64,000 nt of DNA from contig CAMNBZ010000013.1 of assembly GCA_946533675.1 (NCBI GenBank), positions 2,391-66,390 on the forward strand, given 5' to 3'. The position numbers and the translations under genes were made by a program. The notes below the pieces were generated by a model, which worked only from the letters and a program-made list of their open reading frames with translations, was not told the DNA's origin and did not search any database. Below are positions 3,301-33,267 of the stretch, one piece after another (the stretch's first letter is position 1; every line of letters starts with the position of its first letter). This stretch comes from an uncultured Verrucomicrobiota bacterium (GTDB taxonomy: Bacteria; Verrucomicrobiota; Kiritimatiellia; RFP12; UBA1067).

Positions 3301-6296
3301 TAGTGCATCAAGCAGACATTGTCATAGGCAGTCTTAAAGGTTCTGGGAACTTTAGGTCTGATTGGTCTGGAGCCACATCTAGTTCACAAACTCATTCCCT
3401 TGTGATAAAACAAAGCAAGGATACGACATGGAGCGGTGTATTCCAGAATGAGGACAGACTGGCTTCCGTTACAGTTGACGCTGGTGATGATTCAGTTGTC
3501 GGCACACTCACTATTTCTGGAGATCAGGTGGCTGCGAATGCAAGCTACACAACTGCGAGCCATAAGCAGGATAATGCGTTGATAGTCAATGGCTCCGTCA
3601 ACCTTACCGGCACATGGGTCGGCGCCACCACCGTCTCCGGTACGTTTGGCGGCACAGGCACGCTCACGGGCAACCTGACCTTCAACGCGGGCGCGACGTT
3701 CAAGGCGTTCGCGAGCGATACGGACGGGCTTGCCGTCAGCGGCACGGTGACGTGCCCCGCCGAAGGCACGGTGACGGTGGACGTCTCCGCGCTTGAGCAG
3801 ACTGGTACGAAAGTCCTCATGACCGCATCTGGTCTCGACGTCTCGAAGTTCGCTCTTGCGGGCGGCCAGAGCGGCACGCTCTCGGTTGCGGACGGCGCGC
3901 TCAAGGTTTCGTTCACAACGTATGTGGCAGAATACGGCGGCATTCAGTACGAGACCGTTCAGGAGGCCATCAATGCGGCAATCGCGGACGGTCACTCCTA
4001 CGCCGATGTCACCATTCTCGACGCGACGGCCGAATGCCCCGCCGGCTACTATGTCGATACCGAAAACTCCAACGCCCTTACCAAGTACCAGGCGGCGATC
4101 GTCAAGATGGACGAGAGCAAGGTCTATTTCAAGACCGCGCAGCTCGCTTTCGACGATATTGCCGCAAACGCCAATCTTGTCACATACATGCAGGGCTATG
4201 TTTGTGTAGAAGTCTATTACGGTACGGACGTCGCGATTTCCATCAATGCGAGCGCAACGATTTGGGCGATGGGTGTCCCTGTCAAAATCAGGTGCCTTGA
4301 CAGTGCGACGGTGAGCGTCACGACCACCGCTACGGAATCGACTTTGACGGCCGGAGCAGCAGATGAAAACGGCATTGTCACTTATACAAAGGCAGACATC
4401 GCCACTACATATGTTTGGGCCGGCGGAACGACACAGGGGCCGTGGTCCAACCCAAACAAGTGGAAAGTCGGCACATTGGAGGGCGCGACGGCAACGCGCA
4501 AGCCAGGTGCACTCGATACAGTCCAAATAGGAGACGGCGCAAAAGTTACCGATATTGTCGGCTCTTTGAACGTAGCTGCGTTGCAGGTGTCTGGGACGGT
4601 GACGTTCGCCGGCGGCGGGACGCTTACTTCCGCGAGCGCGATTACGCTTGGGGCGAACGACTCCATCGTGATTACCGGCACGCTGAGTCCTGTGCCGACG
4701 ACGACAGTCGCCGACTCCTACGTGAAAGCGACGACTTCGGACAAGACGACCACGTATGTTGTCGATACCTACAAGACCGTCACCATCACCGGCTCCAACA
4801 TGACCGCCACGAGAACCGACACGCTGGGGACGGCTATCAAGGATGGCGACACGATTACCTTCACCATCGCTCCAGCTGAGGGCTATGTGGTGACGGGTGT
4901 CGCTGCCACGCTGGCGGGCGGTTCGTCTGAGACGCTGACTGCGAATAACGGCGTTTATTCGTATGTCGTGAATGGCAATGTCATGATTGCAGTGACTGCT
5001 GCACAGGTGGCAACGGTCGCGGAGCCGAGCTTTGAAGTGTACTATGCCGACTACAGCAAGGCGCAGACGGTGACGCTCGCGGTGTCTGATTATGTAGAAG
5101 ATTCGGTCTATACGCTTCAGGTCGGCAACGGTGCGGCGGTGACGGGCGAGTACGACAGCACAGCGCAGACGGTAACCTTCCGCAACGTCGAAGGATTCAC
5201 GCCCGGCGCGGCGGTGAACTACACAATCACCGTCAGCGGAGCGGCCGCGGGTACGAAGTCCGGCACGGTGACGGCGGCTGCGCCGGCGGTGTCGGGGTGG
5301 GTGAGCGAGACGAAGACGACCATCGGAACCGCGAGCGCCACGGGAACGTGGTCGCCGAATGCGCCGACGTTCGGCGATGCCGACAGCGCGGCGCTTTCCG
5401 GCGAGACGACATTCACCGCGCGCGCTCAGGCGTCCGGCAAGGTGACGCTGACGACGGTTGTCAACTTCGGCAACGAGGCGGCTCCCACGATTGAAATCGG
5501 TGCCGACGCAAAGGCCGCGATCAAGGTCGAGAATAATTCGTTCAAGATCTGGACAAAGACGACGTCTGAGGGCGGAACGGGGGCAACTGCCGATTGGCTG
5601 ACCGTCAGCGGCGCAGAGCCGGATCTGGCGGCTGATTCGACGGTTGTCTTCACGTTCGATACCGATGCGAAGACGTTCACCGCCTCGGTGGGCGGAGCTG
5701 CGCTTTACTATGGCGAGAGCAATGCGAATACCTCGTTCGCATTTGCGAGCGACGGTGTCGCCATCAGTTCCGTCGCCTACAAGGGCGCGGGTTCGTTCAC
5801 TTCGCTGACGGGCGAATACACGACGACCGACGTCACCACCTCCGTTGATGGCAAGCAGGTCGTGGTCGCCAACTCGTTCATCAGCGGCAACGCGGCGCTG
5901 CGCGCGATGACGGTTGCGGAAGCGGCGGCGGCGTTGGCGCCGGATTCGGCCGCCACGTGCGGCAACGGCCTCAATTACTTCAAGTGCTACGCGCTGGGTC
6001 TCGATCCGACGAAGACAGATGACAAGCCGATTGTCGATGTGACGACCGACGCGGAAGGAAAATTCGTCTTCACGGTCAAGCATCCGGTCTACAATGCGCA
6101 AGGCGAGATCATCGGTTATGAGGAAATCAATGCGGCGGACAACGTCTCGACGGCAATCACGCTGAAGTACGGTAATGGGGCGGATGCCTTGACTAGCACA
6201 GCGGCTACGAACACCATCGCGCCGAGTGAGTTGCCGTTTGGTGAGAACAACAACGTCCTCTACTACAAGGCGGAGGTGTCGATCAGCGCGAAGTAA
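378..6296 (+). CDS. Large secreted/surface protein (1972 aa), Thr/Gly/Ala-rich, beta-helix/adhesin-like
   Basis: Long ORF with AGAAAGGA RBS; signal peptide ending AWA; repeated GxGTLT/TVSG-like beta-strand motifs; C-terminal GLNYFKCYALGLDP motif; function not determinable. Confidence 0.8.
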   Translation: MKRTIEILLRLVAPPARLVALLLAVGAAGGAWAGFKMTNPVTGKEETYTYKFVGTTHIWNGTQYWQNSEGANPSAVPGVTNSNLWDPILFDASVNSINITAGLSVEGWNLRMGLYKGANVKLNNLQKLQGNNTPMWITVDGTSQCTIGHMANAKLVNSSPLSLYSAKMGGIAWSEALSDSSNGDGSSMPFHYYLTGTGSVAFNAGISVTGNGAHVIKQADVTLTGTSQVSSKTLVSFTSSTKTFTADAAIKVYDTDGTTLVKTVNLAEVKAASTLTTSDPVGTCELVQTSTGIVLKYVDGDPAAVTGYKPSININFTHSGGNLTTSADVGLAPYAVPGTVWNNYAVPSDGATSTQTSVYSVDATGVKSLVSGSTVSISGTRGSYTCNTLTAASDLRHGYIDEKATAGQNTPTVVVSGISYERYRVVIYAATDTANVTFNYITINGTDYTYVDSKLATGATDWGSSGAANSANALAEGVNVLVSPVLHGSTATISGHKGTSARGCIAAVQIVEYTPEIGENDLLIELDGDETHTFNEAKTYDTVYVTGSGALTFAGTTSTATTLDISGSAAVNMNGSSLTPTAVTGTGTAIYTGELPAEGLGWTASAWYGTVWIKNYTTKVASFQSNKYGNAASTLRLTGMNGYFDYKWTGNNATANYSQNVAIELVDDGDTPAFTYNDGWENTVIYFAKLKGAGTLRTAGSGNKQTLYFANADEFTGTFDLAAQKIQIGGDEKANKDTTVGNGKLIVAGTSAMTANVKTANTMTISGTMNITGAATTEAIISVENGGALNVANGGTLRLTRNTDDNGINPYAGVTIKSGATCTIASGGTITTDGQVTSPYYQFVVNGSMTVAGAFTTLADVAVNAGGSLTIAGTLKAAYGIANSGTITLNGIDNVPVYASGYPTTITNSDTGVVKLTSTGNVNDSAKDYSTIKGTGVLKYSGTGYRTLPYKSGTPAKYPATTLTFENEQTDGGLVVHQADIVIGSLKGSGNFRSDWSGATSSSQTHSLVIKQSKDTTWSGVFQNEDRLASVTVDAGDDSVVGTLTISGDQVAANASYTTASHKQDNALIVNGSVNLTGTWVGATTVSGTFGGTGTLTGNLTFNAGATFKAFASDTDGLAVSGTVTCPAEGTVTVDVSALEQTGTKVLMTASGLDVSKFALAGGQSGTLSVADGALKVSFTTYVAEYGGIQYETVQEAINAAIADGHSYADVTILDATAECPAGYYVDTENSNALTKYQAAIVKMDESKVYFKTAQLAFDDIAANANLVTYMQGYVCVEVYYGTDVAISINASATIWAMGVPVKIRCLDSATVSVTTTATESTLTAGAADENGIVTYTKADIATTYVWAGGTTQGPWSNPNKWKVGTLEGATATRKPGALDTVQIGDGAKVTDIVGSLNVAALQVSGTVTFAGGGTLTSASAITLGANDSIVITGTLSPVPTTTVADSYVKATTSDKTTTYVVDTYKTVTITGSNMTATRTDTLGTAIKDGDTITFTIAPAEGYVVTGVAATLAGGSSETLTANNGVYSYVVNGNVMIAVTAAQVATVAEPSFEVYYADYSKAQTVTLAVSDYVEDSVYTLQVGNGAAVTGEYDSTAQTVTFRNVEGFTPGAAVNYTITVSGAAAGTKSGTVTAAAPAVSGWVSETKTTIGTASATGTWSPNAPTFGDADSAALSGETTFTARAQASGKVTLTTVVNFGNEAAPTIEIGADAKAAIKVENNSFKIWTKTTSEGGTGATADWLTVSGAEPDLAADSTVVFTFDTDAKTFTASVGGAALYYGESNANTSFAFASDGVAISSVAYKGAGSFTSLTGEYTTTDVTTSVDGKQVVVANSFISGNAALRAMTVAEAAAALAPDSAATCGNGLNYFKCYALGLDPTKTDDKPIVDVTTDAEGKFVFTVKHPVYNAQGEIIGYEEINAADNVSTAITLKYGNGADALTSTAATNTIAPSELPFGENNNVLYYKAEVSISAK

Positions 6297-6794: not shown

Positions 6795-7628
6795 ATGGCA
6801 CGAACGGCGCGGATGAAACTGACGGGCGAGGGCACGGCGTACTACCATCTCATGTCCCGCACGAACGACAGACGCTTCCTTTTCGAGAAGGGGCGCGTCA
6901 AGACGGAGCTCGTCGCGGCCTTGCGCCGCGCGGCCGCGTTCAGCGGCATAGAGCTCAAGGCGCTGGTGGCGATGGACAACCACTTCCACGTCATCTGCAA
7001 GGTCGTGCGCGGCGCGGGGCCTGTCCCCGCGGATGAAATCCTGCGCCGTGTCGCAACCCTGAAGGGGAGCCGCGCGGCCGACCGGCTCGCGGAACGCTGG
7101 CGCGCCCTTGAGAAAGCGGGTCATTACGCCGAACGGGACGCGGAGCTGAACCGCTGGCGCGCGCGGATGAACGACATCAGCGCAATGATGAAGACATTCA
7201 AGGAGCAGTTCAACATCTGGTTCAAGCGCGAGCACGGCTACTGCGGGAGCCTGTGGAGCGGGCGTTTCGCCTCAACGCTGATCGAGGACGGGCGGTATCT
7301 CGCGACCTGCATGCGCTACGTGGCGCTCAACCCGGTGCGCGCGCGGCTCGTCACGCAGGCGAAGGACTACCGCTGGTCGTGGACGGCCGAGCCGCCGCCC
7401 TGCCCCGCGGGGCCTGTCCCCGCTGACGAGGGGCCTGTCCCCGCGGTGGCGCTGCTGAAGCGGGTGGCGCAGATCGGCGGCGGAAAGGTGTTCGGCAGCC
7501 GAGAGTTCGTGGCGCGGTGGGTGGTCAACCTGGGCGCCTGCCTGCGGTCGCGCGCGGCGGGGCCTGTCCCCGTGGGGGAGTGGGCGTATGCGTCGCACGG
7601 GTGGCGGCTTGCCAAGGCGGACGCGTGA
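6795..7628 (+). mobile_element. REP-associated tyrosine transposase (RAYT; IS200/IS605 Y1 HUH family)
   Basis: N-terminal YYHLMSR, HUH motif MDNHFHV, LWSGRFAS, catalytic-Tyr region RYVALNPVRARLV...DYRWS; flanked by REP-like palindromes. Confidence 0.9.
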
Positions 7629-21220: not shown

Positions 21221-21262
21221 GCGCGCACGTGCGCGGCGGCGGGGAACGGCCCCCAGGCGGCG

Positions 21263-21275
21263 GGGGACAGACCCC
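21263..21275 (-). repeat. Isolated GGGGTCTGTCCCC copy
   Basis: GGGGACAGACCCC upstream of the ECF sigma promoter. Confidence 0.8.
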
Positions 21276-21296
21276 AGATTGTTTTTAAATTTTCTT

Positions 21297-21322
21297 GAAA
21301 TTTTTTCGCGCGGATTTCGTTT
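21297..21322 (+). promoter_or_regulatory. Putative ECF-type promoter (copy 1 of 3)
   Basis: GAAATT-N15-CGTTT within GAAATTTTTTCGCGCGGATTTCGTTT; same motif and spacing at 24247 and 26242. Confidence 0.55.
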
Positions 21323-21387
21323 ATTACGGTTGAAGGGCGTGGAGTGCCGTCGTGACACGCGGCAGCGCCTGAATGGAGCGAATAACT

Positions 21388-22008
21388 ATGCAGCCCGTCC
21401 TGTCACGGCCGAAAATTTCGTTTGCCCGCACGCGGCAGACGCTTCTCGAGCGTCTCGCCCGCGATCTGTCGCCCGACGGCGAGGCGGCGTGGATGCAGTT
21501 TTTCGAGCTGTACCACCCCGTGATGCTGAAATATGCCGAACTTTACTGCAGCCCGTCGTCTGCCGAGGATATTGTCCAGGACGTGTTCGTCAAACTCGTC
21601 GCCGCGCTGCGCGAGCGGCGCTACGTGCCGCGGCCGGGCGTGAAGTTCAGGACCTATCTCATGACGCTCATCCGGAACGGGTTCGTCGACTGGCGCCGGC
21701 ATGAGCGCGCGCACGGCGCGGACGGCCGCGTGCCCGTCCGCGCGGCGGACGCCGTGACGGCCGTCACCGCGGCCGACCGCCTGGATGCCGAATGGCGCGT
21801 CGCGCGCCGGTTCGCGGCGACCGAGCACGTCCTGTCGCAGACCGCGCTGCCGGACCGGATGCGCCAGGCCTACTGGCTGCACGTGATCGAGGGGCGTCCG
21901 GTCGGCGCGGTGGCGGCGGCGCTCGGCATCCGGAAAAACTACGTGAGTCTGGCCAAGTCGCGCATTTCACGGCGGATCGCCTCGGTCGAGGCGCTTTACG
22001 GAGACTGA
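21388..22008 (+). CDS. ECF sigma factor (kinase-associated type)
   Basis: TRQTLLERL, AEDIVQDVFVKLV, KFRTYLMTLIRN, region 4 VYVSLAKSRI-like; directly upstream of the Ser/Thr kinase; GGAG RBS supports 21388. Confidence 0.85.
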   Translation: MQPVLSRPKISFARTRQTLLERLARDLSPDGEAAWMQFFELYHPVMLKYAELYCSPSSAEDIVQDVFVKLVAALRERRYVPRPGVKFRTYLMTLIRNGFVDWRRHERAHGADGRVPVRAADAVTAVTAADRLDAEWRVARRFAATEHVLSQTALPDRMRQAYWLHVIEGRPVGAVAAALGIRKNYVSLAKSRISRRIASVEALYGD

Positions 22009-22024
22009 CAACGGGAGGTTGACA

Positions 22025-24229
22025 ATGGAAGAAGATCTCAAGGCGGGAACGGTTCTGGGCGGCTATCGCATCATCCGCAGCCTCGGCAGCGGCGGCATGG
22101 GGCGCGTGTACGAGGCGGAGCACCTCGCGCTCGGCGTGCGGCGCGCGCTCAAGGTGTTTTCCGCGCGCACGCGTCCGGCGGAGGAGCTCGCGGCCGGTTT
22201 CGTGGCGGAAGGGCGGGTTCTCGCGAATCTGGCGCACGACCGGGTGGTGCGGATCCACGACCTGGCGGTGGACGGCGAGACGGGCCTTTCGTATTTCGCG
22301 ATGGACCTGGTGCTGTCGCCGGACGGAACGCCCCGGACGCTGGAGGACGCGCGCCGGCGCGGGCTGGACGAAGCGCGCGCGGCGGGCTGGTTCGCCGACA
22401 TCTGCGAAGCGCTGGACTACATCCATGCGCGCGGCATCGTCCACTGCGACCTGAAGCTGGAGAATCTGCTGATCGGGCCCGACGGGCGCGTCGTCATCTC
22501 CGACTTCGGCATCTCGCGCATTTTCGAGGGCGATCTGCGCGAACGGGTGCGGCAGCCGGTCGCGTCGCCCGCGGCGATCGGCCGGCTCGCGGGCGGCACG
22601 CCGCGCTACATCGCGCCGGAGCTGCTGGCGGCGTCGGGCGCCGAGCCGGGCCCCGCATCGGACGCCTGGTCGCTCGGCGTGCTGACGTTCCGGCTGCTGA
22701 CCGGCTTCTGGTTCGACGATGCGCCGCGGGCGAAGAGTCTCGCGCTGCTTGACGAATTCGACCTGCCGTGGCGCGCGGTCGTGGCGGGGCTCTGCGCGGC
22801 CGACCCCAAGGCGCGCCTCGTAAACGGCGGGCTGCGCGGCTGGGCGACACGCCTGTCGACGGACGGCCCGCGCCGGCGCGGCCTCCTCGCCGCCGGCGGC
22901 CTCCTCGCCGCCGCCGCGCTGGCGCTGGCGGCCGGGGCGCTCTTCCGGGGGCTGCGCGCGGACTCGCCCGTCGCCTGCGCGCTGCGTCCCGACGCGCCGA
23001 ACTGGAGCGACTGGCGCGCCGGGCGGTTTGCGCGTCTGGACGCGACGCTGCTCGACGGCCGGGCGAAGGAGGACGGCGACCTCGCGTTCGTGCTGGGGCT
23101 ATCCGTGGAGCGCCGCGCCTCCTACCTTTCCTACGGGAAGCGCTGGCGGGACGGCCTGCTGGAGAAGATGGACGCCCTGATCGCCGCAGAGGCCGCGACG
23201 GAAGGCGCGACGGGGCTCAGTCCCGCGCAGGCGTTCGTCGTCGCGGGCGAGATTCACCGCGTGCGGCGTGCGCAGGCGCCGTATTACGCGGAGTTTCCCG
23301 ACGAGATCGACCGCCTGCTGCTGCTGGCGAAGCGTTTCATCGCCGACGCCACGAAACGCCAGCTTCATCCCGAGAAGCGCTATATGGTGATCGATCCCGA
23401 ATGGGTGTATGAAATCATCGAGGACGAGCTGCCGTTCGGGCGGCTGGACGGCCGGCGCGTCGGCGCGGGCGACACGGAGTTTCAACGCACGGCGGACGTC
23501 TGGATCATGCGCATGATCCGCGGCGCGACGCTGGCGGCGGAGGCGTCCCGCGCGCTGGCCGGACGCGGCGCAAACGCGCCGGCCGAGGCGCGTGCGGCGC
23601 ACGAGGAGAAGTGCGCGCTCGCGCGGCGGAACTTCTACGAGGCGTATGCGATGAAGCCGCAACGGTACGCGGCCGCGATGCGGATGATCGGCGTGTCGCA
23701 CGACGACATCCCGGAATGCCGCCGCTGGTTCGAGACCTGCCAGGCATTCAGCTTCGACGACTTCTGCGTCTGGATGAACTACGCGCACTGCCTCGCGCTG
23801 GCCGACGGCGGACGCGCGCGGCTGGAGCGCCTGCTGGACGCCGCGTTCGAGACGGGGCGCTACGATACATGGGTTCCGGCGTTCTATGTGCTCGTCCGCT
23901 GGCGGATCTATGCGAAATACTGCGGGCCGGAACGTCCGCTCGGCGCGGACGCGCGCGCCTGGGCGTACGAAGACGAGGCGGTGCGCGCGCGGTCGCTGGA
24001 CGTCATCCGGAAGTATCAGGCGAGCGAGATTTTCGCGCGTGCGCCGGACATGCGCCGCCGGGCGGTGACGGCGGTTTTCGCCGTCGTGGCGCTGCTGTGC
24101 GGCGACGAGGCGCTGGCGGACGAACTCGCGGCGACGATTCCGGCGGAAGACCTCAAGGCGGTCGTCAGCGAAGCCGCCGCGAAAGGCACGTCGCTTTACC
24201 GGCGTCTCGTGCGTCGAAACGGCGATTAA
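22025..24229 (+). CDS. Membrane-anchored Ser/Thr protein kinase
   Basis: LGSGGMGRVY, ALKVF, HCDLKLENLL, DFG, YIAPE; hydrophobic segment then a C-terminal domain of unknown function. Confidence 0.9.
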   Translation: MEEDLKAGTVLGGYRIIRSLGSGGMGRVYEAEHLALGVRRALKVFSARTRPAEELAAGFVAEGRVLANLAHDRVVRIHDLAVDGETGLSYFAMDLVLSPDGTPRTLEDARRRGLDEARAAGWFADICEALDYIHARGIVHCDLKLENLLIGPDGRVVISDFGISRIFEGDLRERVRQPVASPAAIGRLAGGTPRYIAPELLAASGAEPGPASDAWSLGVLTFRLLTGFWFDDAPRAKSLALLDEFDLPWRAVVAGLCAADPKARLVNGGLRGWATRLSTDGPRRRGLLAAGGLLAAAALALAAGALFRGLRADSPVACALRPDAPNWSDWRAGRFARLDATLLDGRAKEDGDLAFVLGLSVERRASYLSYGKRWRDGLLEKMDALIAAEAATEGATGLSPAQAFVVAGEIHRVRRAQAPYYAEFPDEIDRLLLLAKRFIADATKRQLHPEKRYMVIDPEWVYEIIEDELPFGRLDGRRVGAGDTEFQRTADVWIMRMIRGATLAAEASRALAGRGANAPAEARAAHEEKCALARRNFYEAYAMKPQRYAAAMRMIGVSHDDIPECRRWFETCQAFSFDDFCVWMNYAHCLALADGGRARLERLLDAAFETGRYDTWVPAFYVLVRWRIYAKYCGPERPLGADARAWAYEDEAVRARSLDVIRKYQASEIFARAPDMRRRAVTAVFAVVALLCGDEALADELAATIPAEDLKAVVSEAAAKGTSLYRRLVRRNGD

Positions 24230-24246
24230 AAAATAAATTTTTTCGT

Positions 24247-24616
24247 GAAATTTTTTCGCGCGATTTTCGTTTGTTAGGATTGAAGGGGGAAATAGGGCCT
24301 TCTTCCGCCGTGGCGCGGCGCCGGCGCGCTTGACAGCAAACGAAGATAAATGATAAGATAAAGGCAGAAAATGAAACTTGCGTGCGATGTCAATGTTGGT
24401 TGGGGTCTGTCCCCGCAAGGTTGGGCATCAGACTTCGGACTTCAGACTCCCAAGTTGAGGTCGAAGGGGAGGGCGTTGCAGTTTCGAAGTCTGAAGTCAG
24501 ATGTCCGAAGTCCTTCTCCCCAATTTGCGGGGACAGACCCCAGCTGAAAAGGCGATAATGTGTCAGAAAGGAGATTGAATGATGCAAAATGTAAATGTTG
24601 GTTGGGGTCTCTCCCC
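24247..24616 (+). repeat. Array unit A leader scaffold (promoters, REP hairpin, RBS/ATG head)
   Basis: Near-identical to 26242-26611 (offset 1995); TTGACA 24330-24335 / TGaTAAGAT to 24359; 18-bp perfect inverted repeat 24401-24418 / 24525-24542; ends in GGGGTCTCTCCCC 24604-24616. Confidence 0.92.
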
Positions 24617-25577
24617 AATTTTTAAACGCAATCTTTCGATTTTAGTGCTGATAGTCGCTTGCTTGGTGAGACTTCCCTTGAGCGCGATTGAAGGACAATC
24701 TGAGGCGCTTAGCATATTAGCTCCGTTTCATGGTTTTTGCCCTAGGTTGGCGCAGGCTTTAAGTGGTAATAATGTTGAAGAACTTGTAGCGCTTACAGCC
24801 CCAATGTTCAGGGTTGCGCTGACAAATGATCTAAATAAGTTCAAATTGAGATTCGAAGGTTTGCGCGGGACAGATATTTTTTGTTCGGTTGTACCAAGGC
24901 AGGTGCTTTATTCTAAAGCAGATAATGATGTGATAGAATCTTTTATGGAAGAGGGCATAAAAGATATTGTGCCTATCCGCATAGTCAGCTTAAGTAAAAA
25001 ACAACAGAATGTACCATCGGTTGATACGATTTATGTTAATACCGTGTTGCAGAATAGCGGACAGCCGATGATTATCGGGCGATTCATCATAGGCGGGCCA
25101 GTCACGCCGGATGATGTCAACAGAGATATTCAGGCGCTAAGGGATGGCTGTTTGGATGTTGATGATTCCATCATCTTTCGACGTGATCGGCTATTTGTTA
25201 GCGATGGGGAGTATGCGTGGAATCTTGCCAGTAAGATTAAAGACATACTTTCTGATAAGAATCAAGCGCGGTCTCTTTCCTCCAGAATTTCTGTAAACGC
25301 TGATTTGCGATCTACAGTTGAAGAAATTGAGAGGTTGTCAACATACAGGATTAGGGCGGTCATTCCATTCTGCTCAGATTCACAATATACACGAAATAAG
25401 GTAGATGCAAGGGATGGTGATGTCCATGCATATTCGTTCGCGGTATATGCAGAAGAATTGCCGATAAAGGAAATTGGGTTTATTCATGTTGTTATTGGTC
25501 GTGATTTAAGTTTTCGCATTATAAATGTTGAAGAATACGGCCGTTTTTACCGTATGCGTTCATGTGACGGGGGGTGA
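24579..25577 (+). CDS. Low-GC cargo ORF A, hypothetical, possibly secreted (332 aa)
   Basis: AAAGGAG RBS; first residues MMQNVNVGWGLSP are encoded by the repeat motif and followed by signal-peptide-like KRNLSILVLIVACLVRLPLSA; visibly AT-rich. Confidence 0.7.
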   Translation: MMQNVNVGWGLSPIFKRNLSILVLIVACLVRLPLSAIEGQSEALSILAPFHGFCPRLAQALSGNNVEELVALTAPMFRVALTNDLNKFKLRFEGLRGTDIFCSVVPRQVLYSKADNDVIESFMEEGIKDIVPIRIVSLSKKQQNVPSVDTIYVNTVLQNSGQPMIIGRFIIGGPVTPDDVNRDIQALRDGCLDVDDSIIFRRDRLFVSDGEYAWNLASKIKDILSDKNQARSLSSRISVNADLRSTVEEIERLSTYRIRAVIPFCSDSQYTRNKVDARDGDVHAYSFAVYAEELPIKEIGFIHVVIGRDLSFRIINVEEYGRFYRMRSCDGG

Positions 25578-25708
25578 AAGGGTCAGCAACTGTAAATTTC
25601 ATGAGAAATTTTCGGGCATTGTCTAAGGGTGTCGAATTCCATCCTTGCGCGTCAGAGGGGTGCGAGGGTCAAACCCTTGTGAAACGGTCGAAGTGATACG
25701 GTCAAAGT

Positions 25709-26220
25709 AGTTTTGATAGACTGCTAGCCCTGATGAATCTGCGCGAGAATATGTCTGGAAGATGCCGCCGAGCCCGTCGGTCGGCACGTCAGCCATTTGT
25801 GCGCCATAATCCGGCGGGCCCGAACACGCATGTCCGTGATCGTGAACACGCATGTCCGCGTTCGTGAATACGCATGTTCGCGATTGTGAATACGCATGTT
25901 CGTGATTACGGGCGCGGTTCCCCTGTTTTTAATTAACTCCGAGCAGCTGGGCTTTCGTTACCACTTCGCGCAATTCGTTCTGCTTCGCATGTGAAATTGT
26001 TCTGTAGCTGATGAGAAATGTCTATTTGTGGCTGGAGGAGGTTTCCTTCCGACCACCTCGTGTCTGAAGGCGGGTCGTCTTACCTGCCGAAGGCAGCCTC
26101 TAAAGATGCTGACCCAACCTGAACAGCCGTTGAAAAACGCGAAGCGGCGGAGCGGTCGCGGGAGCCTAAACGCTCGGAGTTGATAAATGTCAATGTTGGC
26201 CGGGGTCCCACCGCAATTTT
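25709..26220 (+). repeat. Array unit A tail scaffold
   Basis: Near-identical to 27411-27945; contains four 22-bp repeats (25820-25907); ends in ATGTCAATGTTGGCCGGGGTCCCACCGCAATTTT. Confidence 0.92.
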
Positions 26221-26241
26221 CGAGAAGTCTAGATTTTCCTT

Positions 26242-26611
26242 GAAATCTTTTCGCGCGGTTTTCGTTTGTTAGGATTGAAGGGGGCGGCAGGGCCTTCTTC
26301 CGCCGTGGCGCGGCGCCCGCGCGCTTGACAGCAAACGAAGATAAATGATAAGATAAAGGCAGAAAATGAAACTTGCGTGCGATGTCAATGTTGGTTGGGG
26401 TCTGTCCCCGCAAGGTTGGGCATCAGACTTCGGACTTCAGACTCCCAAGTTGAGGTCGAAGGGGAGGGCGTTGCAGTTTCGAAGTCTGAAGTCAGATGTC
26501 CGAAGTCCTTCTCCCCAATTTGCGGGGACAGACCCCAGCTGAAAAGGCGATAATGCGTCAGAAAGGAGCCTAAACAATGAAAAATGTAAATGTCGGTTGG
26601 GGTCTCTCCCC
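26242..26611 (+). repeat. Array unit B leader scaffold
   Basis: TTGACA 26325-26330; REP pair 26397-26409 / 26524-26536; head ATG 26577 (MKNVNVGWGLSP); GGGGTCTCTCCCC 26599-26611. Confidence 0.92.
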
Positions 26612-26853
26612 TATTTTCCGAATGTTGGAATCCATCTTATTGTTTTGACGTTGAGCCTCAATGCCCAGATGGTTGGTGCCCTTCTGGCGCGAAACCATTT
26701 TTAACTGATGGACTAGGGAAACTATCTAATACTAACCCAGCGTGGAATTTCAGTACGAATGGACTGCATTCCAATTGTTTTGAGATGCAAACTCGTGAGT
26801 GGATTTTGGGCGTCCAAGCATACCTTGGTCGTTGGTGCACAAAATGTGAATAG
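26590..26853 (+). CDS. Cys-rich low-GC ORF (87 aa), possibly a truncated 3' gene fragment
   Basis: The only start is an ATG inside the repeat motif; six Cys; ends RWCTKCE. Confidence 0.35.
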   Translation: MSVGVSPLFSECWNPSYCFDVEPQCPDGWCPSGAKPFLTDGLGKLSNTNPAWNFSTNGLHSNCFEMQTREWILGVQAYLGRWCTKCE

Positions 26854-26891
26854 ACAATCGATCAAATCTTACTTGCAGCTTTGAGTTTATT

Positions 26892-27410
26892 ATGAAAAGA
26901 GTTCAACAATCATATGTCGCTGCTACTACTGCGACAATCTTTTTCTTCCAATGCATAGCGACATGCTGTATTTGGGATATGAAAATGGGTGTTCTGCTAT
27001 ATTTTTTAATGGCATTACTATGTATTATTCAATTTCCTACATTTATTATAATAATGTGTTTTCTGTTTTTAGCCCCTGTACCTTCAAACAGCATCTTTTC
27101 ATGCTTGGCAGAAAAAGCCTTTTCAATATATTTGTCGAAATTTTACGTTTTTGCCATTGCACATAGTATTCTTTGGCATCACTTCCTGACAGGCGAACAA
27201 TACATAATGTCTAAAAGTTCACTATACATTTTGCTTTTGTATGGTTTATTGTTTATTTCGTCGCCTTTGCCTGATTCGCCATCGATTTGTTTATTGCTAT
27301 TTCCTCTAGAAGTGTTATCCCCTTTGGGTCTTTATGTTCTTGTCGATAATGGTTTGTCTCGGATTATGGTTGCTATAAGAAGGGACGGACATGATTGCCA
27401 CAGTAAATGA
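26892..27410 (+). CDS. Low-GC cargo ORF B, multi-pass membrane hypothetical protein (172 aa)
   Basis: Several hydrophobic segments; very AT-rich; stop codon abuts the tail scaffold at 27411. Confidence 0.6.
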   Translation: MKRVQQSYVAATTATIFFFQCIATCCIWDMKMGVLLYFLMALLCIIQFPTFIIIMCFLFLAPVPSNSIFSCLAEKAFSIYLSKFYVFAIAHSILWHHFLTGEQYIMSKSSLYILLLYGLLFISSPLPDSPSICLLLFPLEVLSPLGLYVLVDNGLSRIMVAIRRDGHDCHSK

Positions 27411-27945
27411 AGTTTATGATACACTGCTAGCCATGATGAATCTGCGCGAGAGTATGTCTGGAAGATGCCGCCGAATCCGTCGGTTGGCACGTCAGCCATT
27501 TGTGCGACATAATTCTGCGGGTCCGAACACGCATGTCCGTGATCGTGAACACGCATGTCCGTGATCGTGAACACGCATGTCCGCGTTCGTGAATACGCAT
27601 GTTCGCGATTGTGAATACGCATGTTCGTGATTACGGGCGCGGTTCCCCTGTTTTTAATTAACTCCGAGCAGCTGGGCTTTCGTTACCACTTCGCGCAATT
27701 CGTTCTGCTTCGCATGTGAAATTGTTCTGTAGCTGATGAGAAATGTCTATTTGTGGCTGGAGGAGGTTTCCTTCCGACCACCTCGTGTCTGAAGGCGGGT
27801 CGTCTTACCTGCCGAAGGCAGCCTCTAAAGATGCTGACCCAACCTGAACAGCCGTTGAAAAACGCGAAGCGGCGGAGCGGTCGCGGGAGCCCAAACGCTC
27901 GGAGTTGATAAATGTCAATGTTGGTTGGGGCCCCACCGCAATTTT
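27411..27945 (+). repeat. Array unit B tail scaffold
   Basis: Five 22-bp repeats (27523-27632); ends in ATGTCAATGTTGGTTGGGGCCCCACCGCAATTTT. Confidence 0.92.
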
Positions 27946-27957
27946 TTTTCTAGAGGG

Positions 27958-28067
27958 GCTAGACCGCTCGCTTACGCGGGCTACGCTAGACCGCTCGCTT
28001 TGCTCGCTACGCTAGACCGCCCGCTTACGCGGGCTACGCTAGACTTCTAGAATAGCGAGCGGTCTAG
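27958..28067. repeat. Three 26-27 bp GCTAGACCGCTCGCTT...CTAC repeats plus an inverted partial copy
   Basis: Units 27958-27984, 27985-28010, 28011-28037; inverted AGCGAGCGGTCTAG at 28054-28067; related AGCGAGCGCTCTAGA at 13682. Confidence 0.85.
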
Positions 28068-28237
28068 ACCAGCGTGCAACGCGGCACAAATTCCTTTGCC
28101 CCGGCGGCGGTTGACTTTGGGGGAGCGATATGATAACATACGCCCCCGTTCGTCCGGAATAGGCGACTCTCCACGTGCGGGTGCACGACGGGAAGCAACG
28201 CCCCTTACGGATTCACTTGCGTCAAGGGTCACATGAA

Positions 28238-29689
28238 TTGTCTCACCTTACACAGCAAGCTACGCCTCTCGCGGAGGCGCTGAACGCGCAGCGGATCAAC
28301 CGTCTGGCGCATTTCGACGTGCCCGGCCACAAGGGCGGGCGCATGAACCCCGAGCTCCCCGAGTACTACGGACGCCTGTGCATGTCGCTCGACGTCAACT
28401 CGATGAAGCCGCTTGACAACCTGGGCCATCCCGTGGGCGTCATCCGGGACGCGCAGGCGCTCGCGGCGGAGGCGTTCGGCGCGGACCACGCCTTCTTCAT
28501 GGTGAACGGCACCACCTCCGCCGTCCAGACGATGATCTGGACGACGTGCGGCCGCGGCGAAAAGATCATCATGCCGCGCAACGTCCACCGCAGCGCCATC
28601 AACGCGCTCGTCATCAACGGCGCGATCCCCGTCTACGTCAACCCCGGGCGCAACGCGCGGCTCGGCATCCCGCTGGGGATGGGCGTGGAGGACGTGCAGC
28701 GCGCCATCGAGCAGCACCCCGACGCGAAGGCCATCCTCGTCAACAACCCGACGTACTACGGCGTGTGCTCCGACCTGGAGACGATCGTCTCCATCGCGCA
28801 CGCGGCGGGGATGAAGGTGCTGGCGGACGAGGCGCACGGCACGCACTTCTACTTCTCCGACAGGCTGCCGGTCTCGGGCATGGCGGCGGGCTGCGACATG
28901 GCGGCCGTCTCGCTCCACAAGACGGGCGGCTCGCTCACGCAGAGCTCGATCCTCCTCAGCCGGAACACGGTCAACCCCGACTACGTGCGCCAGATGATCA
29001 CGCTGACGCAGTCGACGAGCGCGAACTACCTGCTGCTGAGTTCGCTCGATCTCGCGCGCCGCCACCTGCACTTCCACGGCCGCGAGGTCTACGAAAAGAC
29101 CATCGCCTTCGCGGAGTACGCGCGCGAGGAGATCAACCGCCTCGGCGGCTACTACGCGTTCGGCCCCGAGATCTGCAACGGCGACACGTGCTTCGCGTTC
29201 GACCTGACGAAGCTGTCGGTCCACACGCGCGACATCGGGCAGGCCGGCATCGAGGTGTACGACCTGCTCCGCGACGACTACGGCATCCAGATCGAGTTCG
29301 GCGACGTCGGCAACATCCTCGCCATCATCTCGGCGGGCGACCGCCGCATGGACGTCGAGCGGCTCATCTCCGCGCTCGCCGAGATCAAGCGCCTGCACCG
29401 CAAGGATCCCGTCGGCCTCTTCGACCACGAATACATCGACCCCGACGTCGCCATGACGCCCGAGGCCGCGTTCGTCGCGCAGAAGGAGACGGTGCCGCTG
29501 CGGGCGTCGCTCGGCCGCGTCGCCGGCGAATTCGTGATGAGCTATCCGCCCGGCATCCCGATTCTCGCGCCGGGCGAGCGCGTCACGCCCGACATCCTCG
29601 AACACATCGAATTCACCAAGGCCAAGGGCTGCTTCATGACCGGCCCCCTGGACATGGCGCTCAACAACCTGCAGGTCGTTGTGAGTTGA
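28238..29689 (+). CDS. PLP-dependent Orn/Lys/Arg decarboxylase (probably arginine decarboxylase by context)
   Basis: FDVPGHKGG, VNGTTSA, PRNVHRS, ADEAHG, SLHKTGG, SYPPGIP; TTG start 28238 inferred (track start 28175). Confidence 0.9.
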   Translation: MSHLTQQATPLAEALNAQRINRLAHFDVPGHKGGRMNPELPEYYGRLCMSLDVNSMKPLDNLGHPVGVIRDAQALAAEAFGADHAFFMVNGTTSAVQTMIWTTCGRGEKIIMPRNVHRSAINALVINGAIPVYVNPGRNARLGIPLGMGVEDVQRAIEQHPDAKAILVNNPTYYGVCSDLETIVSIAHAAGMKVLADEAHGTHFYFSDRLPVSGMAAGCDMAAVSLHKTGGSLTQSSILLSRNTVNPDYVRQMITLTQSTSANYLLLSSLDLARRHLHFHGREVYEKTIAFAEYAREEINRLGGYYAFGPEICNGDTCFAFDLTKLSVHTRDIGQAGIEVYDLLRDDYGIQIEFGDVGNILAIISAGDRRMDVERLISALAEIKRLHRKDPVGLFDHEYIDPDVAMTPEAAFVAQKETVPLRASLGRVAGEFVMSYPPGIPILAPGERVTPDILEHIEFTKAKGCFMTGPLDMALNNLQVVVS

Positions 29690-29718
29690 GAGTGGAGAAT
29701 GGAGAGTGGAGAGTTGAG
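29684..29718 (+). repeat. G-rich heptamer array (left arm), 5 units
   Basis: AGTTGAG AGTGGAG AATGGAG AGTGGAG AGTTGAG; contains the TGA stop of the decarboxylase. Confidence 0.92.
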
Positions 29719-29757
29719 CGTGGCGTGTCACAACTTGAGAATGGAGGGCGAGGCAGG

Positions 29758-30117
29758 ATGAGGGAAAGCATCATTGCAGACAAGAGTTATGCCTTGGCCG
29801 TCAGGGTCGTCAGGCTGAACCGGCATTTGGCGGAGAAGAAAAAAGAGTTCGTCCTGAGCAAGCAGCTCTTGCGTGCCGGCACGAGCATCGGCGCCAATGT
29901 CCGCGAAGGGCAGGAGGGGCAGAGCAAGGCCGATTTCGTCAACAAGTTCAGCATTGCGCTCAAGGAGTGCGGCGAGACGCTGTATTGGCTGGATCTCTTG
30001 CACGATACCGGATTCCTGACGGATCGGCAGTACCGCTCCATTTGCGATGATTGCATTGAAGTGAAGAAACTGCTCGTCTCGATCGTCAAGACTTCCCGCT
30101 CCCGCCTCCCGCACTAA
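29758..30117 (+). CDS. Four-helix-bundle protein (23S rRNA intervening-sequence protein family)
   Basis: DKSYALAVRVV, LSKQLLRAGTSIGANVREG, SKADFVNKFSIALKECGETLYWL; 119 aa. Confidence 0.92.
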   Translation: MRESIIADKSYALAVRVVRLNRHLAEKKKEFVLSKQLLRAGTSIGANVREGQEGQSKADFVNKFSIALKECGETLYWLDLLHDTGFLTDRQYRSICDDCIEVKKLLVSIVKTSRSRLPH

Positions 30118-30213
30118 CTCTCCACTCTCAACTTTCAACTTTCAACTCTCAACTCTCCACTCTCAACTTTCAACTCTCAACTCTCCACTCTCAACTTTCA
30201 ACTCTCAACTCTC
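30116..30213 (+). repeat. C-rich heptamer array (right arm), 14 units
   Basis: 14 x (A/C)ACT(C/T)TC from the TAA of the four-helix gene up to 1 nt before the speE ATG; reverse complement of the left arm. Confidence 0.95.
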
Positions 30214-30214
30214 C

Positions 30215-31060
30215 ATGGAACTGTGGTACACCGACAAGCATACGGAGGACGTGCGCTTCTCCGTCAAGGTCAAGCGGCAGCTCGCCTCGCACAAGAGCGA
30301 GATCCAGCAGATCGACATCCTCGACACGTGCGGCTTCGGGCGCGTCCTGGTCCTCGACGGCGAGCTGATGATCACCGAGAAGGACGAGTTCATCTACCAT
30401 GAGATGCTCACGCACGTGCCGATGGCGGTCCATCCCAACGTGGAGACGGTGCTCGTCGTCGGCGGCGGCGACGGCGGCACGGTGCGCGAACTCGCGAAGT
30501 ACCCGTCCATCCGCGAAATCGATCTCGTCGAGGCCGACAAGGAGGTGGTGACGCTCTCGTCCATCCACCTGCCGTTCACGGCGTGCAAGCTGCGCGACCC
30601 GCGCGTGCGGCTCCACTTCGAGGATGGCCTGCGGTTCGTGCGCGGCAAGAAGGACGCATACGATCTCATCATCGTCGACTGCCCCGATCCCTACGGCCCC
30701 GCCGAGGGCCTCTTCACGCGCGAGTTCTACGGCAACTGCTGCAACGCGCTCAAGGAGGACGGCATCCTCATCAACCAGCACGAGTCGCCGTTCTACGCCG
30801 CGCACCAGACGAGCGTCAAGAACGCCCACGCGCACATCGCGATCGAGTTCCCCGTCTCGACCGTCTACCAGTGCCACATCCCGAGCTATCCGTCGGGCCA
30901 CTGGCTCTTCGGCTTCGCGTCGCTCAAGTACGATCCCGTGCGCGACCTCGACGCGGCGCGCTGGAACGCGCTCGGCATCGCCGCGCGCTACTACAACACC
31001 GACCTCCACCGCGGCGCGTTCGCGCTGCCCAACTACGTCAAGGAGCTCCTGAACCGATGA
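30215..31060 (+). CDS. speE: Polyamine aminopropyltransferase (spermidine synthase)
   Basis: DEFIYHEML, VLVVGGGDGG, IIVDCPDP, IPSYPSGHW. Confidence 0.93.
   Translation: MELWYTDKHTEDVRFSVKVKRQLASHKSEIQQIDILDTCGFGRVLVLDGELMITEKDEFIYHEMLTHVPMAVHPNVETVLVVGGGDGGTVRELAKYPSIREIDLVEADKEVVTLSSIHLPFTACKLRDPRVRLHFEDGLRFVRGKKDAYDLIIVDCPDPYGPAEGLFTREFYGNCCNALKEDGILINQHESPFYAAHQTSVKNAHAHIAIEFPVSTVYQCHIPSYPSGHWLFGFASLKYDPVRDLDAARWNALGIAARYYNTDLHRGAFALPNYVKELLNR

Positions 31061-31924: not shown

Positions 31925-33267
<1,343 letters not shown>

What the first reader, a model, noticed from the sequence alone, without database searches (positions are those of the whole stretch)
24564..26648. Scaffold supplies the translation start: cargo is fused to a REP-encoded head peptide (M.NVNVGWGLSP)
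Seen: both units have AAAGGAG-N8-ATG-(C/A)AA-AAT-GTA-AAT-GT(T/C)-GGT-TGG-GGT-CTC-TCC-CC. In A this ATG opens a 332-aa ORF whose signal-peptide-like segment begins right after the motif, as if the native start had been replaced. In B it gives a 23-aa ORF (26577-26648), while an ATG-TAA-ATG inside the motif opens the +1 frame ORF 26590-26853. The same VNVGWGLSP frame occurs in a 58-aa leader ORF (24371-24547; 26366-26542). The spacer between RBS and ATG differs between units although the leader upstream is conserved. Inference: the head offers starts in two frames so that promoterless or start-less fragments can be expressed.
Basis: partly seen in the sequence, partly recalled or inferred. Interest (0 to 1): 0.7.

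Follow-up and report, generated by a model that had tools for sequence, protein, structure and literature searches.

The report
Shared start signal for orphan immunity genes
A rumen bacterium keeps stolen anti-toxin (immunity) genes behind a repeated leader that supplies promoters, a ribosome-binding site and a start codon, so one gene that lost its own start can still be read; the idea that the leader offers starts in two reading frames does not hold.

Summary
The sequence observation is correct. Both units carry AAAGGAG, an in-frame ATG and a 14-15 codon "head" that runs over a REP-like hairpin to a fixed junction (..CCCCWATTTT|cargo).

The units are two cassettes in a low-GC island (24239-27946). 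This lies inside a strain-variable segment (about 21221-28103) of a high-GC rumen Kiritimatiellia genome.

Cargo A (ORF 24579-25577) is an Rhs-type immunity-position gene. Its homologues start with their own SD-ATG exactly where the head ends, so here the head does replace the native start.

Cargo B begins inside an Rhs toxin tip. The "+1 frame" ORF 26590-26853 is a 5'-truncated toxin remnant. The intact partner gene (26892-27410) has its own ATG. The two-frame design is therefore not supported.

Among 12 heads in related metagenome loci, three are in-frame fusions, all inside signal peptides. One of these has a 97%-identical unfused relative. The other heads end as short upstream ORFs, two of which overlap the cargo start.

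The head behaves like the ORF-11/ORF-18 element of integron attI1, and the array resembles Bacteroidales rAID-1 immunity arrays. No integrase, attC site or XerD-like recombinase is present. Translation itself is untested.

The parts
21221..28103 (+). Strain-variable segment. Order: REP(-), ECF-type promoter, sigma gene, Ser/Thr kinase gene, unit A, unit B, terminal repeats.
   Evidence: Sister strains (L037, L039-L044) have a 1320-aa CotH gene between the same GH20 and decarboxylase genes. Homology stops right after the GH20 stop codon and resumes at GGCGGCGGTTGAC.
21263..21337 (+). REP copy (minus orientation, 21263-21275), followed by a 48-nt promoter region (21290-21337) upstream of the sigma gene that is repeated at the start of each leader.
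   Evidence: Repeat family D6 has copies at 21290, 24240 and 26235 at 88% identity.
21373..24229 (+). ECF-type sigma factor gene (21373-22008) and Ser/Thr protein kinase gene (22019-24229), immediately upstream of unit A.
   Evidence: Pfam Sigma70_r2 and r4_2, and Pkinase. A 32%-identical sigma plus a kinase is itself cargo behind a head in L026.
24239..24578 (+). Leader A. It contains the ECF-type promoter copy (24239-24300), a sigma-70-type promoter TTGACA-18-TAAGAT (24330-24359), motif S (24385-24421), a REP-doublet hairpin (about 24396-24547), the SD AAAGGAG (24567-24573) and a spacer.
   Evidence: The fold has -113 kcal/mol and z = -6.7.
24579..24623 (+). Head A: ATG ATG CAA then NVNVGWGLSPIF, running over the REP-like hairpin GGTTGGGGTCTCTCCCCAATT. 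The fixed junction lies after 24623.
   Evidence: In other samples different cargoes start at 24621-24624.
24579..25577 (+). ORF A (332 aa): head fused to an Rhs immunity-position gene that lacks its own SD and ATG. The cargo DNA itself spans 24624 to about 25656.
   Evidence: Homologues P0002 and P0003 have their own starts and lie directly after ORFs with an Rhs core plus C-terminal domain.
25657..26221 (+). Tail A. It contains a palindrome AGGGTCAAACCCT plus GTGATACGGTC repeats, four 22-nt iterons (about 25822-25909), a conserved 270-nt block and motif S (26185-26221).
   Evidence: Alignment of 8 tails and repeat families D1 and D4.
26234..26576 (+). Leader B, with the same parts as leader A: promoter 26325-26354, S 26380-26416, SD 26562-26568 and an 8-nt spacer.
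26577..26648 (+). Head B ORF (23 aa, MKNVNVGWGLSPIF + 9). It ends in the cargo. The junction lies at 26616/26617.
   Evidence: Homology to the native toxin locus L047 starts at 26617.
26617..26853 (+).
   Evidence: It matches only the last 78 residues of P0009-P0013. P0010-P0013 carry the Rhs_assc_core domain.
26892..27410 (+). 172-aa membrane protein with its own ATG; candidate cognate immunity gene of the truncated toxin.
   Evidence: Homologues lie directly downstream of the intact toxins in L047 (81% identity) and L048 (32%).
27405..27946 (+). Tail B, with five iterons and motif S at 27910-27946.
27946..28060 (+). Terminal GCTAGACCGCTCGC / TCTAGA repeat block that closes the array.
   Evidence: Repeat family D10. 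The same block ends or precedes arrays in L006, L026, L028, L029, L033 and L038.
6795..7628 (+). REP-associated tyrosine (Y1/HUH) transposase gene, flanked by clusters of the same REP.
   Evidence: Pfam Y1_Tnp scores 37.6 bits against a cut-off of 23. NCBIfam REP_Tyr_transpos scores 70.7 bits, below its cut-off of 80.

Best explanation
The finding is the 3' end of a repeated 'expression leader' that precedes foreign, low-GC cargo in a cassette array of a rumen Kiritimatiellia genome.

Each cassette has three parts:
- a leader of about 340 nt, holding a copy of the promoter region of the neighbouring ECF sigma gene, a near-consensus sigma-70 promoter, a REP-doublet hairpin, an SD, an ATG and a 14-15 codon head;
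- the cargo;
- a tail of about 560 nt.

The head ORF runs across a fixed junction (..GGGGTCTCTCCCCWATTTT|). What happens next depends on where the cargo DNA begins:
- If the cargo begins inside the 5' end of a gene and in frame, the head supplies SD, start codon and an N-terminal extension. This is the case for cargo A, an orphan Rhs-type immunity gene whose signal peptide stays intact behind the head.
- If the cargo brings its own start, the head is a short upstream ORF that stops in the cargo, sometimes overlapping the cargo start (translational coupling).
- If the cargo begins deep inside a gene, the product is a dead remnant. This is the case for cargo B's toxin tip, where the real payload is the downstream immunity gene with its own ATG.

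The head therefore works like the ORF-11/ORF-18 translation-initiation region built into integron attI1. It is a platform-borne start signal that rescues or boosts cargo. It is not a two-frame adaptor.

Shown by the data: the anatomy, the homologue N-termini, the fixed junction and cargo turnover between strains. Inferred: that the promoters fire, that the head is translated, and that ORF A protects against a toxin.
For: 1. The motif and leaders are real repeats.

2. The leader carries TTGACA-18-TAAGAT with a TG extension. It also carries a copy of the region upstream of the sigma gene.

3. ORF A homologues carry their own SD-ATG at the position where the head ends, and they follow Rhs core-CT genes. 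No other SD-preceded start exists in ORF A (read).

4. In L025 the head replaces codons 1-11 of a gene whose 97%-identical copy P0008 (L035) has MYMRMLICCVL|TLLLLQSVNA and follows an Rhs core-CT ORF.

5. In L034 the head is fused in frame to ..LVCVLLGGC.., which looks like a lipoprotein signal. All 3 junctions that fall in signal peptides are in frame, where 1/27 is expected if frame were free.

6. Twelve heads were examined; eleven keep AAAGGAG plus an in-frame ATG. The 14 nt between the SD and AAT GTA exist as two unrelated alleles, and codon 2 varies (ATG, CGA, AGA, GGT).

7. An independent sample (X3) has the same cargo A at the same junction behind a head with four amino-acid changes, with the ATG and frame kept.

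8. The head-ORF stop overlaps the cargo start in L030 (ctATGAgc) and L033.

9. The junction is fixed on the head side and variable on the cargo side, seen in 14 junctions, including two in L036 that differ by 6 nt.

10. The same chromosomal site behind the kinase holds a different cargo in L027.

11. A bovine metatranscriptome holds a 151-nt contig identical to ORF A.
Against: - There is no direct evidence of transcription start sites or of translation from 24579/24582. The single RNA contig could be DNA carry-over.
- Only 3 of about 12 distinct cargoes use the head as their start, close to the one-in-three expected for random frames if all junctions are pooled.
- Several cargoes next to heads are plain gene debris (the toxin tip in B; a Fic-like C-terminal fragment in L027, L029 and L033). 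Junction formation is therefore not guided by expression.
- The whole leader is 90-100% conserved among copies, so conservation of the SD and ATG alone is weak evidence of selection.
- The head hairpin followed by a run of T looks like an intrinsic terminator in A, which could limit read-through.
- A profile search of the protein database for the head peptide returned only four short ORFs and missed ORF A itself, so its spread is poorly sampled.
Confidence: 0.6

Rival explanations
1. The head ORF is an inert relic. SD, ATG and the 14 codons would be the leftover 5' end of some ancestral gene, or a by-product of the repeat's DNA sequence. On this view the in-frame fusions are luck, and ORF A is a recently truncated gene that is not made, or is made from another start.
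For: - Cargo next to heads is often debris.
- The L020 head has lost its SD and frame while its cargo keeps its own SD.
- All three S variants (leader, head, tail) keep the same open frame simply because they are DNA paralogues.
- Pooled in-frame rate is about one third.
Against: - Three intact ORFs of 332, 361 and 152 aa occur in stop-rich low-GC DNA, each joined within its signal peptide and each in frame.
- The ATG and frame are kept through two unrelated spacer alleles and four codon-2 variants.
- ORF A is carried unchanged behind a diverged head in a second sample.
- There is no alternative SD-preceded start in ORF A.
Confidence: 0.2
2. The motif is first of all a DNA recombination or cleavage site. 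Candidate enzymes are the REP-associated Y1 transposase or an unlinked recombinase. It may also serve as a terminator or attenuator hairpin. On this view its coding capacity is secondary, and the head ORF matters, if at all, only as a leader peptide whose translation opens the hairpin.
For: - The junction is fixed at ..CCCCWATTTT| with variable cargo ends.
- Hybrid S sites show that the 200-nt hairpin has been deleted (L027, L029) or that tail-S has joined leader-S (L030).
- A REP doublet is 'filled' with cargo in L010 and L020 but 'empty' in L030 and in runs X2-X4.
- REPs in the window occur only at the transposase gene and in this segment.
- The head A hairpin has 8 bp followed by U5.
Against: - This reading does not conflict with start donation; both can hold.
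- No recombinase sits next to any array.
- The hairpin is weak in head B (only 4 bp).
- The S-S hybrids can also arise by ordinary recombination between 30-nt direct repeats.
Confidence: 0.15
3. One reading: the head is an adaptor that deliberately offers ATGs in two reading frames, so that start-less fragments in either frame are expressed.
For: ATG-TAA-ATG is present inside every head, and in unit B the second ATG opens an 87-aa ORF.
Against: - That ORF is the last 78 residues of an Rhs toxin domain of about 150 residues, so it cannot be a working product.
- No other head among 12 has a long ORF in that frame.
- The +1 ATG has no SD of its own.
Confidence: 0.03

Closest known systems
ORF-11 / ORF-18 / ORF-17 translation-initiation region in attI1 of class 1 integrons (review PMC8876359, section 3.1)
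   Same: - A canonical SD plus ATG (GGAG 8 bp upstream there; AAAGGAG 5 or 8 nt upstream here) is built into the platform.
- The short ORF runs across the recombination junction.
- Its stop codon is supplied by whatever cassette follows.
- It serves cassettes that lack their own initiation region, by coupling or by fusion.
- The peptide sequence itself seems unimportant.
   Different: - Here every cassette has its own copy, together with its own promoters. In an integron there is one copy at the head of the array.
- The junction lies next to a REP-like hairpin, not in an attI/attC core.
- True in-frame N-terminal fusions to signal peptides occur.
- No integrase is present.
rAID-1 recombinase-associated acquired interbacterial defence clusters of Bacteroidales (Ross et al., bioRxiv 10.1101/471110)
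   Same: - Co-directional arrays of orphan immunity genes, with toxin remnants.
- GC content differs from that of the host.
- Repeated intergenic sequences.
- Contents vary between strains of gut bacteria.
   Different: [quoted passage not shown]
- The repeats here are long (about 900 nt from tail to leader) and carry promoters, a REP doublet and an SD-ATG.
- The host phylum is different.
- Related arrays also carry anti-phage-type genes: TOTE, SIR2-like, reverse transcriptase and a CARF protein.
Orphan Rhs/CDI toxin-immunity modules downstream of rhs genes (for example Salmonella, PMC3967940)
   Same: Cargo B is a truncated Rhs C-terminal tip plus its partner gene. Cargo A is an immunity-position gene without its toxin.
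   Different: - Classical orphans keep a piece of the Rhs core, which lets them recombine into the main gene. Here no core is left.
- The modules sit behind dedicated promoters, far from any rhs gene.
- The 1972-aa ORF at 378-6296 has no Rhs signature.
REP / REPIN elements and their RAYT transposases
   Same: - The leader hairpin is an inverted doublet of the same 13-mer that flanks the window's RAYT-like gene.
- The head hairpin is a one-base variant of that 13-mer.
   Different: - REPINs are short, non-coding and carry no cargo.
- Here the REP-like sites bracket 0.4 to more than 13 kb of genes and are embedded in a longer conserved motif (AATGTMAATGTYGG + REP + ATTTT).
Insertion sequences with outward-facing promoters (own knowledge: IS10, ISAba1, ISEcp1 type activation)
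   Same: A repeated element places a strong promoter in front of whatever lies next to it.
   Different: - No transposase lies within the unit.
- The unit also supplies an SD, a start codon and codons.
- The conserved parts flank the cargo on both sides (leader on the left, tail on the right).

Membership tests
Integron | intI integrase gene adjacent to the array | tested here: not met
   The array is flanked by a Ser/Thr kinase gene and a decarboxylase gene. No tyrosine or serine recombinase domain was found in about 30 window ORFs scanned, nor upstream of the L028 array.
Integron | attC site (imperfect inverted repeat with RYYYAAC / GTTRRRY cores) at the 3' end of each cassette | tested here: not met
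   Cassettes end in a 560-nt tail with iterons and the S motif. No inverse-core/core pair was seen on reading. This was checked by eye, not with an attC model.
Integron | Single platform promoter (Pc) expressing promoterless cassettes | tested here: not met
   Each cassette has its own leader with a TTGACA-18-TAAGAT promoter.
attI1 ORF-11-type translational enhancer (functional class) | Platform-encoded SD and ATG; the ORF crosses the junction; the stop codon is supplied by the cargo | tested here: met
   Eleven of the 12 heads examined are intact.
attI1 ORF-11-type translational enhancer (functional class) | Measured increase of cargo translation that depends on the SD and ATG | not testable with these tools
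   This needs reporter assays or ribosome profiling.
rAID-1 (Bacteroidales) | 5' XerD-like tyrosine recombinase with at least 44% identity to BF9343_RS08045 | tested here: not met
   No recombinase lies at either end of the arrays. The definition is taken from 10.1101/471110.
rAID-1 (Bacteroidales) | Two or more co-directional genes of deviant GC with immunity-gene homology and repeated intergenic sequence | tested here: met
   The island has 46-50% GC against 68% for the genome. Immunity-position genes are shown. Repeats are shown.
Classical orphan Rhs module | Retained fragment of the Rhs core (PxxxxDPxGL region) 5' of the toxin tip | tested here: not met
   Cargo B starts at residue 85 of the 162-aa P0009, well past the core.
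REPIN / RAYT system | Inverted doublet of the REP that flanks a RAYT gene in the same genome | tested here: met
   Exact 13-mers lie at 24402(+)/24529(-) and 26397(+)/26524(-). The same 13-mer clusters around 6795-7628, which matches Y1_Tnp. The NCBIfam REP_Tyr_transpos score of 70.7 is below its cut-off of 80.
REPIN / RAYT system | Mobilisation or cleavage by the RAYT | not testable with these tools
   This needs biochemistry or population time series.

The most novel reading that the evidence does not exclude
The leader-cargo-tail units would be a gene-capture and expression platform that works without an integrase. On this reading:
- REP-like S sites, cut or joined by the genome's REP-associated Y1 transposase, bracket foreign immunity and anti-phage genes, in effect cargo-carrying REPINs.
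- Every captured piece is automatically placed behind a promoter pair, one promoter being controlled by the island's own ECF sigma / Ser-Thr kinase pair.
- It also sits behind a ready-made SD-ATG head that can rebuild a signal peptide.
Probability: 0.15. Interest if true: 0.85.

Novelty: new variant of a known kind. Interest (0 to 1): 0.55.

Why it matters
Orphan immunity genes let gut bacteria survive neighbours' toxins, and so far they have mainly been studied in Bacteroidales and Proteobacteria. This locus shows a different arrangement in an uncultured rumen lineage. Each acquired gene gets its own portable promoter-plus-start module. At least three genes that lost their own start are kept as intact reading frames through that module.

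If the head is translated, this would be a second, independent case of the integron ORF-11 principle. It would also be a natural example of a signal peptide rebuilt from platform sequence.

The link to REP sequences, and to a neighbouring sigma/kinase pair whose promoter is copied into every leader, gives testable ideas for how such arrays are filled and switched on.

Tried and rejected
- **Rfam.** The whole window at gathering threshold, and the island at E <= 1, gave only a tRNA and chance microRNA-like hits. The leader and tail match no described RNA family.

- **Plasmid, phage and viral collections.** The tail-leader module and two exact patterns found nothing. The 22-nt iterons are therefore not traceable to a known replicon.

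- **Genome-wide scan for the 20-nt core.** It returned 21 loci, but about 17 are expected by chance for a pattern of this information content.
  - The 11 Treponema hits are one conserved ABC-ATPase coding stretch (..NVNVGWGDN..). I rejected them as relatives.
  - Only L006, L010 and L020 (Kiritimatiellia) are true relatives.

- **Searching the protein database for the head peptide.** A profile of nine head N-termini found only four short ORFs and did not recover ORF A. The spread of head fusions could therefore not be measured that way.

- **Exact look-up of ORF A** found no record.

- **Consensus folding of the tail.** It gives a long-range helix (CTCCGAGC..GCTCGGAG), but the copies are too similar for covariation. 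I make no claim that the tail is an RNA.

- **Other models considered.**
  - Integron attC, dif/Xer, Tn7-end and plasmid-origin readings of the tail and S motif found no support in the sequence.
  - I also considered the tail-leader-head block as a single 950-nt insertion element. The arrays begin with a leader and end with a tail (window, L025, L026, L028, L030), which fits leader-cargo-tail units better. I could not settle this.

- **Pfam and NCBIfam on cargo A, the 172-aa ORF and most other cargo** found no family.
Full report
**Observation**

The sequence is as described.

- Unit A: AAAGGAG (24567-24573), ATG ATG (24579, 24582), then CAA AAT GTA AAT GTT GGT TGG GGT CTC TCC CCA ATT TTT, continuing as a 332-aa ORF to 25577.
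- Unit B: AAAGGAG (26562-26568), an unrelated 8-nt spacer, ATG AAA (26577), then the same codons. This gives a 23-aa ORF. The internal ATG-TAA-ATG opens ORF 26590-26853.
- The 20-nt core of the motif occurs six times in the window, always on the + strand, against 0.03 expected.
- The heads lie at the end of 300-nt leaders that are 97% identical.
- The hairpin part of the motif is a one-base variant of GGGGTCTGTCCCC. That 13-mer clusters around a REP-associated Y1 transposase gene at 6795-7628. Elsewhere in the window it occurs only at 21263 and in this island.

**Anatomy**

The window is a 68%-GC genome. Positions 24239-27946 have 46-50% GC and consist of two units, each built as leader, cargo, tail.

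The leader contains:
- a copy of the 48 nt found upstream of the neighbouring ECF sigma gene (21290-21337);
- a TTGACA-18-TAAGAT promoter with a TG extension;
- motif S;
- a long hairpin made of an inverted REP pair (-113 kcal/mol, z = -6.7);
- the SD and the head.

The tail (about 560 nt) contains:
- a palindrome at its start;
- four or five 22-nt iterons;
- a highly conserved 270-nt block;
- a third copy of S.

A block of GCTAGACC.. repeats closes the array (27946-28060).

**What the cargo is**

Cargo A:
- ORF A has two distant homologues, P0002 and P0003 (41-43% identity).
- P0003 lies directly behind an ORF with an Rhs core followed by a C-terminal domain. That is the position of an immunity gene. 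P0002 follows the 3' end of a similar ORF.
- They start MKGNCLLLF.. and MKVHCLVLL.. behind their own GGAGG.
- ORF A aligns from ..KRNLSILVL.., so the head (MMQNVNVGWGLSPIF) stands exactly where the native Met was.

Cargo B:
- Residues 10-87 of the 87-aa ORF match only the last 78 residues of proteins of 162-1726 aa. Four of those five proteins carry Rhs core domains.
- The ORF is therefore the 3' half of a toxin tip.
- The next ORF (26892-27410, 172 aa, membrane protein, own ATG) is the conserved neighbour of the intact toxins in L047 (81% identity) and L048 (32%).
- Unit B thus carries a dead toxin remnant plus an intact immunity candidate. The +1-frame start inside the motif is an accident of where the cargo DNA begins (26617).

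**Heads elsewhere**

One genome scan and one metagenome scan found the same leaders and tails. They occur in three contigs of two Kiritimatiellia MAGs and in ten rumen/gut metagenome contigs. Protein look-ups added L035 and L036. Twelve head copies were examined.

- Eleven keep AAAGGAG and an in-frame ATG.
- The 14 nt between the SD and AAT GTA occur as two unrelated alleles (NTTGA ATG NNN CAA, or CCTAAACA ATG AAA). Codon 2 is ATG, CGA, AGA or GGT.
- One head (L020) has lost both SD and frame. Its cargo has its own SD.

Three heads continue in frame into long ORFs, each time inside a signal peptide:
- window A (332 aa);
- L025 (361 aa, ..SPIF|TLLLLQSVNAFE);
- L034 (152 aa..SPIF|LVCVLLGGC).

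For L025 there is a 97%-identical gene, P0008, with its native start MYMRMLICCVL|TLLLLQSVNA. It lies behind an Rhs core-CT ORF in L035. That fusion is therefore a recent deletion that removed the toxin gene and the first 11 codons of the immunity-position gene.

The other heads end after 23-62 codons.
- In L030 the head stop overlaps the cargo start (ctATGAgc).
- In L033 the two ORFs overlap by 11 nt.
- In the remaining cases the cargo gene starts 20-250 nt further on, with its own SD.

A contig of run X3 carries cargo A at the same junction behind a head with four amino-acid changes. The ATG and frame are kept.

**Junction behaviour**

- The head side of the junction is fixed (..CCCCWATTTT, plus or minus one T). 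The cargo side is arbitrary (14 junctions).
- S copies recombine with each other:
  - L027 and L029 have a leader-S/head-S hybrid that has lost the hairpin.
  - L030 has a tail-S/leader-S hybrid.
  - The REP doublet that follows that hybrid is empty in L030 and in runs X2-X4, but holds a 0.7-kb gene in L010.
- Cargo size ranges from 0.4 kb to more than 13 kb.
- Besides toxin/immunity pieces, the cargo includes conflict-system genes: TOTE components, an AAA_15 ATPase, a reverse transcriptase, Cas_NE0113 and a SIR2-like protein. It also includes a second sigma/kinase pair and glycoside hydrolases.

**Context**

- In sister strains with an identical spermidine synthase, the interval between the GH20 gene and the decarboxylase gene holds a CotH gene instead.
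- In the window the same interval (21221-28103) holds REP, sigma, kinase and the two units.
- L027 has the same sigma-kinase-leader arrangement but a different cargo.
- No recombinase other than the distant Y1 transposase was found in about 30 window ORFs or next to other arrays.

**How it most likely works**

Shown:
- The leader is a repeated module with promoter-like and initiation signals.
- The head ORF crosses a fixed junction.
- One window cargo, and two cargoes elsewhere, have no start of their own and are in frame.
- Cargo differs between strains.

Inferred:
- Transcription starts at the leader promoters. The copied sigma-gene promoter would tie the cassettes to the adjacent ECF sigma/kinase pair.
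- Ribosomes load at AAAGGAG-ATG.
- They then either make a fusion protein in which the head extends the n-region of the signal peptide, or terminate near the cargo start and re-initiate.
- The peptide sequence itself seems free to vary, as with integron ORF-11.

The only expression datum is a 151-nt metatranscriptome contig inside ORF A. How cargo is inserted is open. Both REP-directed cutting by the Y1 transposase and ordinary recombination between S repeats fit the data.

**Comparison and novelty**

- Functionally, the head matches the ORF-11/ORF-18 initiation region of attI1 (PMC8876359).
- The array matches the rAID-1 orphan-immunity clusters of Bacteroidales (10.1101/471110).
- It is a member of neither. 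It has no integrase, no attC, no XerD-like recombinase and no single platform promoter.
- It is not a classical Rhs orphan either, because no Rhs core is retained.
- I rate it a new variant of a known kind. The new elements are a per-cassette promoter-plus-start module, REP-like junctions, and in-frame rebuilding of signal peptides.

Noticed in passing
window 6795-7628 (also 7016, 7409, 7430, 7559): The REP-associated transposase gene contains four copies of a one-base REP variant (GGGGCCTGTCCCC) inside its own coding sequence, each read as G-P-V-P. It is flanked by six exact REPs.
   Followed up: partly
window 29676-30215: A 23S-rRNA-IVP (four-helix-bundle) gene at 29740-30117 sits between inverted arrays of 7-nt repeats (GAGAGTG/GAGAGTT type). 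This lies between the decarboxylase and spermidine synthase genes. In strain L045 those two genes are only 2 nt apart, so the whole 525-nt piece is an insertion polymorphism. Similar heptamer runs lie at 32102, 32588 and 33702.
   Followed up: partly
window 21221-28103 versus L037 3094-7212: The sigma-kinase-cassette segment and a 1320-aa CotH/LTD gene are alternative occupants of the same chromosomal interval in strains that are otherwise near-identical.
   Followed up: yes
window 25822-25909 and 27525-27634; tails in L006, L010, L020, L025, L030, L034: The 22-nt iterons (GTGAAYACGCATGTYCGYGWTY) vary from one to five copies between tails. The flanks are 95-100% conserved. Their role is unknown.
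   Followed up: partly
L033 (promoter-strand orientation) 4614-5148; window 25733-25867 and 27391-27564: The first 130 nt of the tail look like a native-style promoter and start (GATAGACT, 7 nt, ATGATGAATCTGCGCGAG). In L033 this start runs in frame into a 152-aa membrane protein. This may be a second scaffold piece that can donate a start.
   Followed up: no
L029 748-11740: A head-less leader is followed by more than 13 kb of low-GC conflict-system genes. These include a Cas_NE0113 CARF protein, a TOTE helicase and a TPR/S1 protein, an AAA_15/DUF3696 ATPase and a reverse transcriptase.
   Followed up: partly
window 378-6296: A 1972-aa ORF lies in a 55%-GC stretch, next to the REP cluster. It has no Pfam or NCBIfam match.
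   Followed up: no
L001, L003-L005, L008, L012-L014, L018, L019, L021: Eleven Treponema MAGs share the exact 20-nt core inside an ABC-type ATPase gene, where it is also read as NVNVGWG. I judged this a coincidence of one conserved gene, because the scan expects about 17 chance hits.
   Followed up: partly
window 24371 and 26366: The ATG of the 58-aa 'leader ORF' lies only about 5 nt after the predicted transcription start of the TTGACA/TAAGAT promoter. It would therefore be near-leaderless. In L010 and L020, cargo is inserted right after this first S copy.
   Followed up: no
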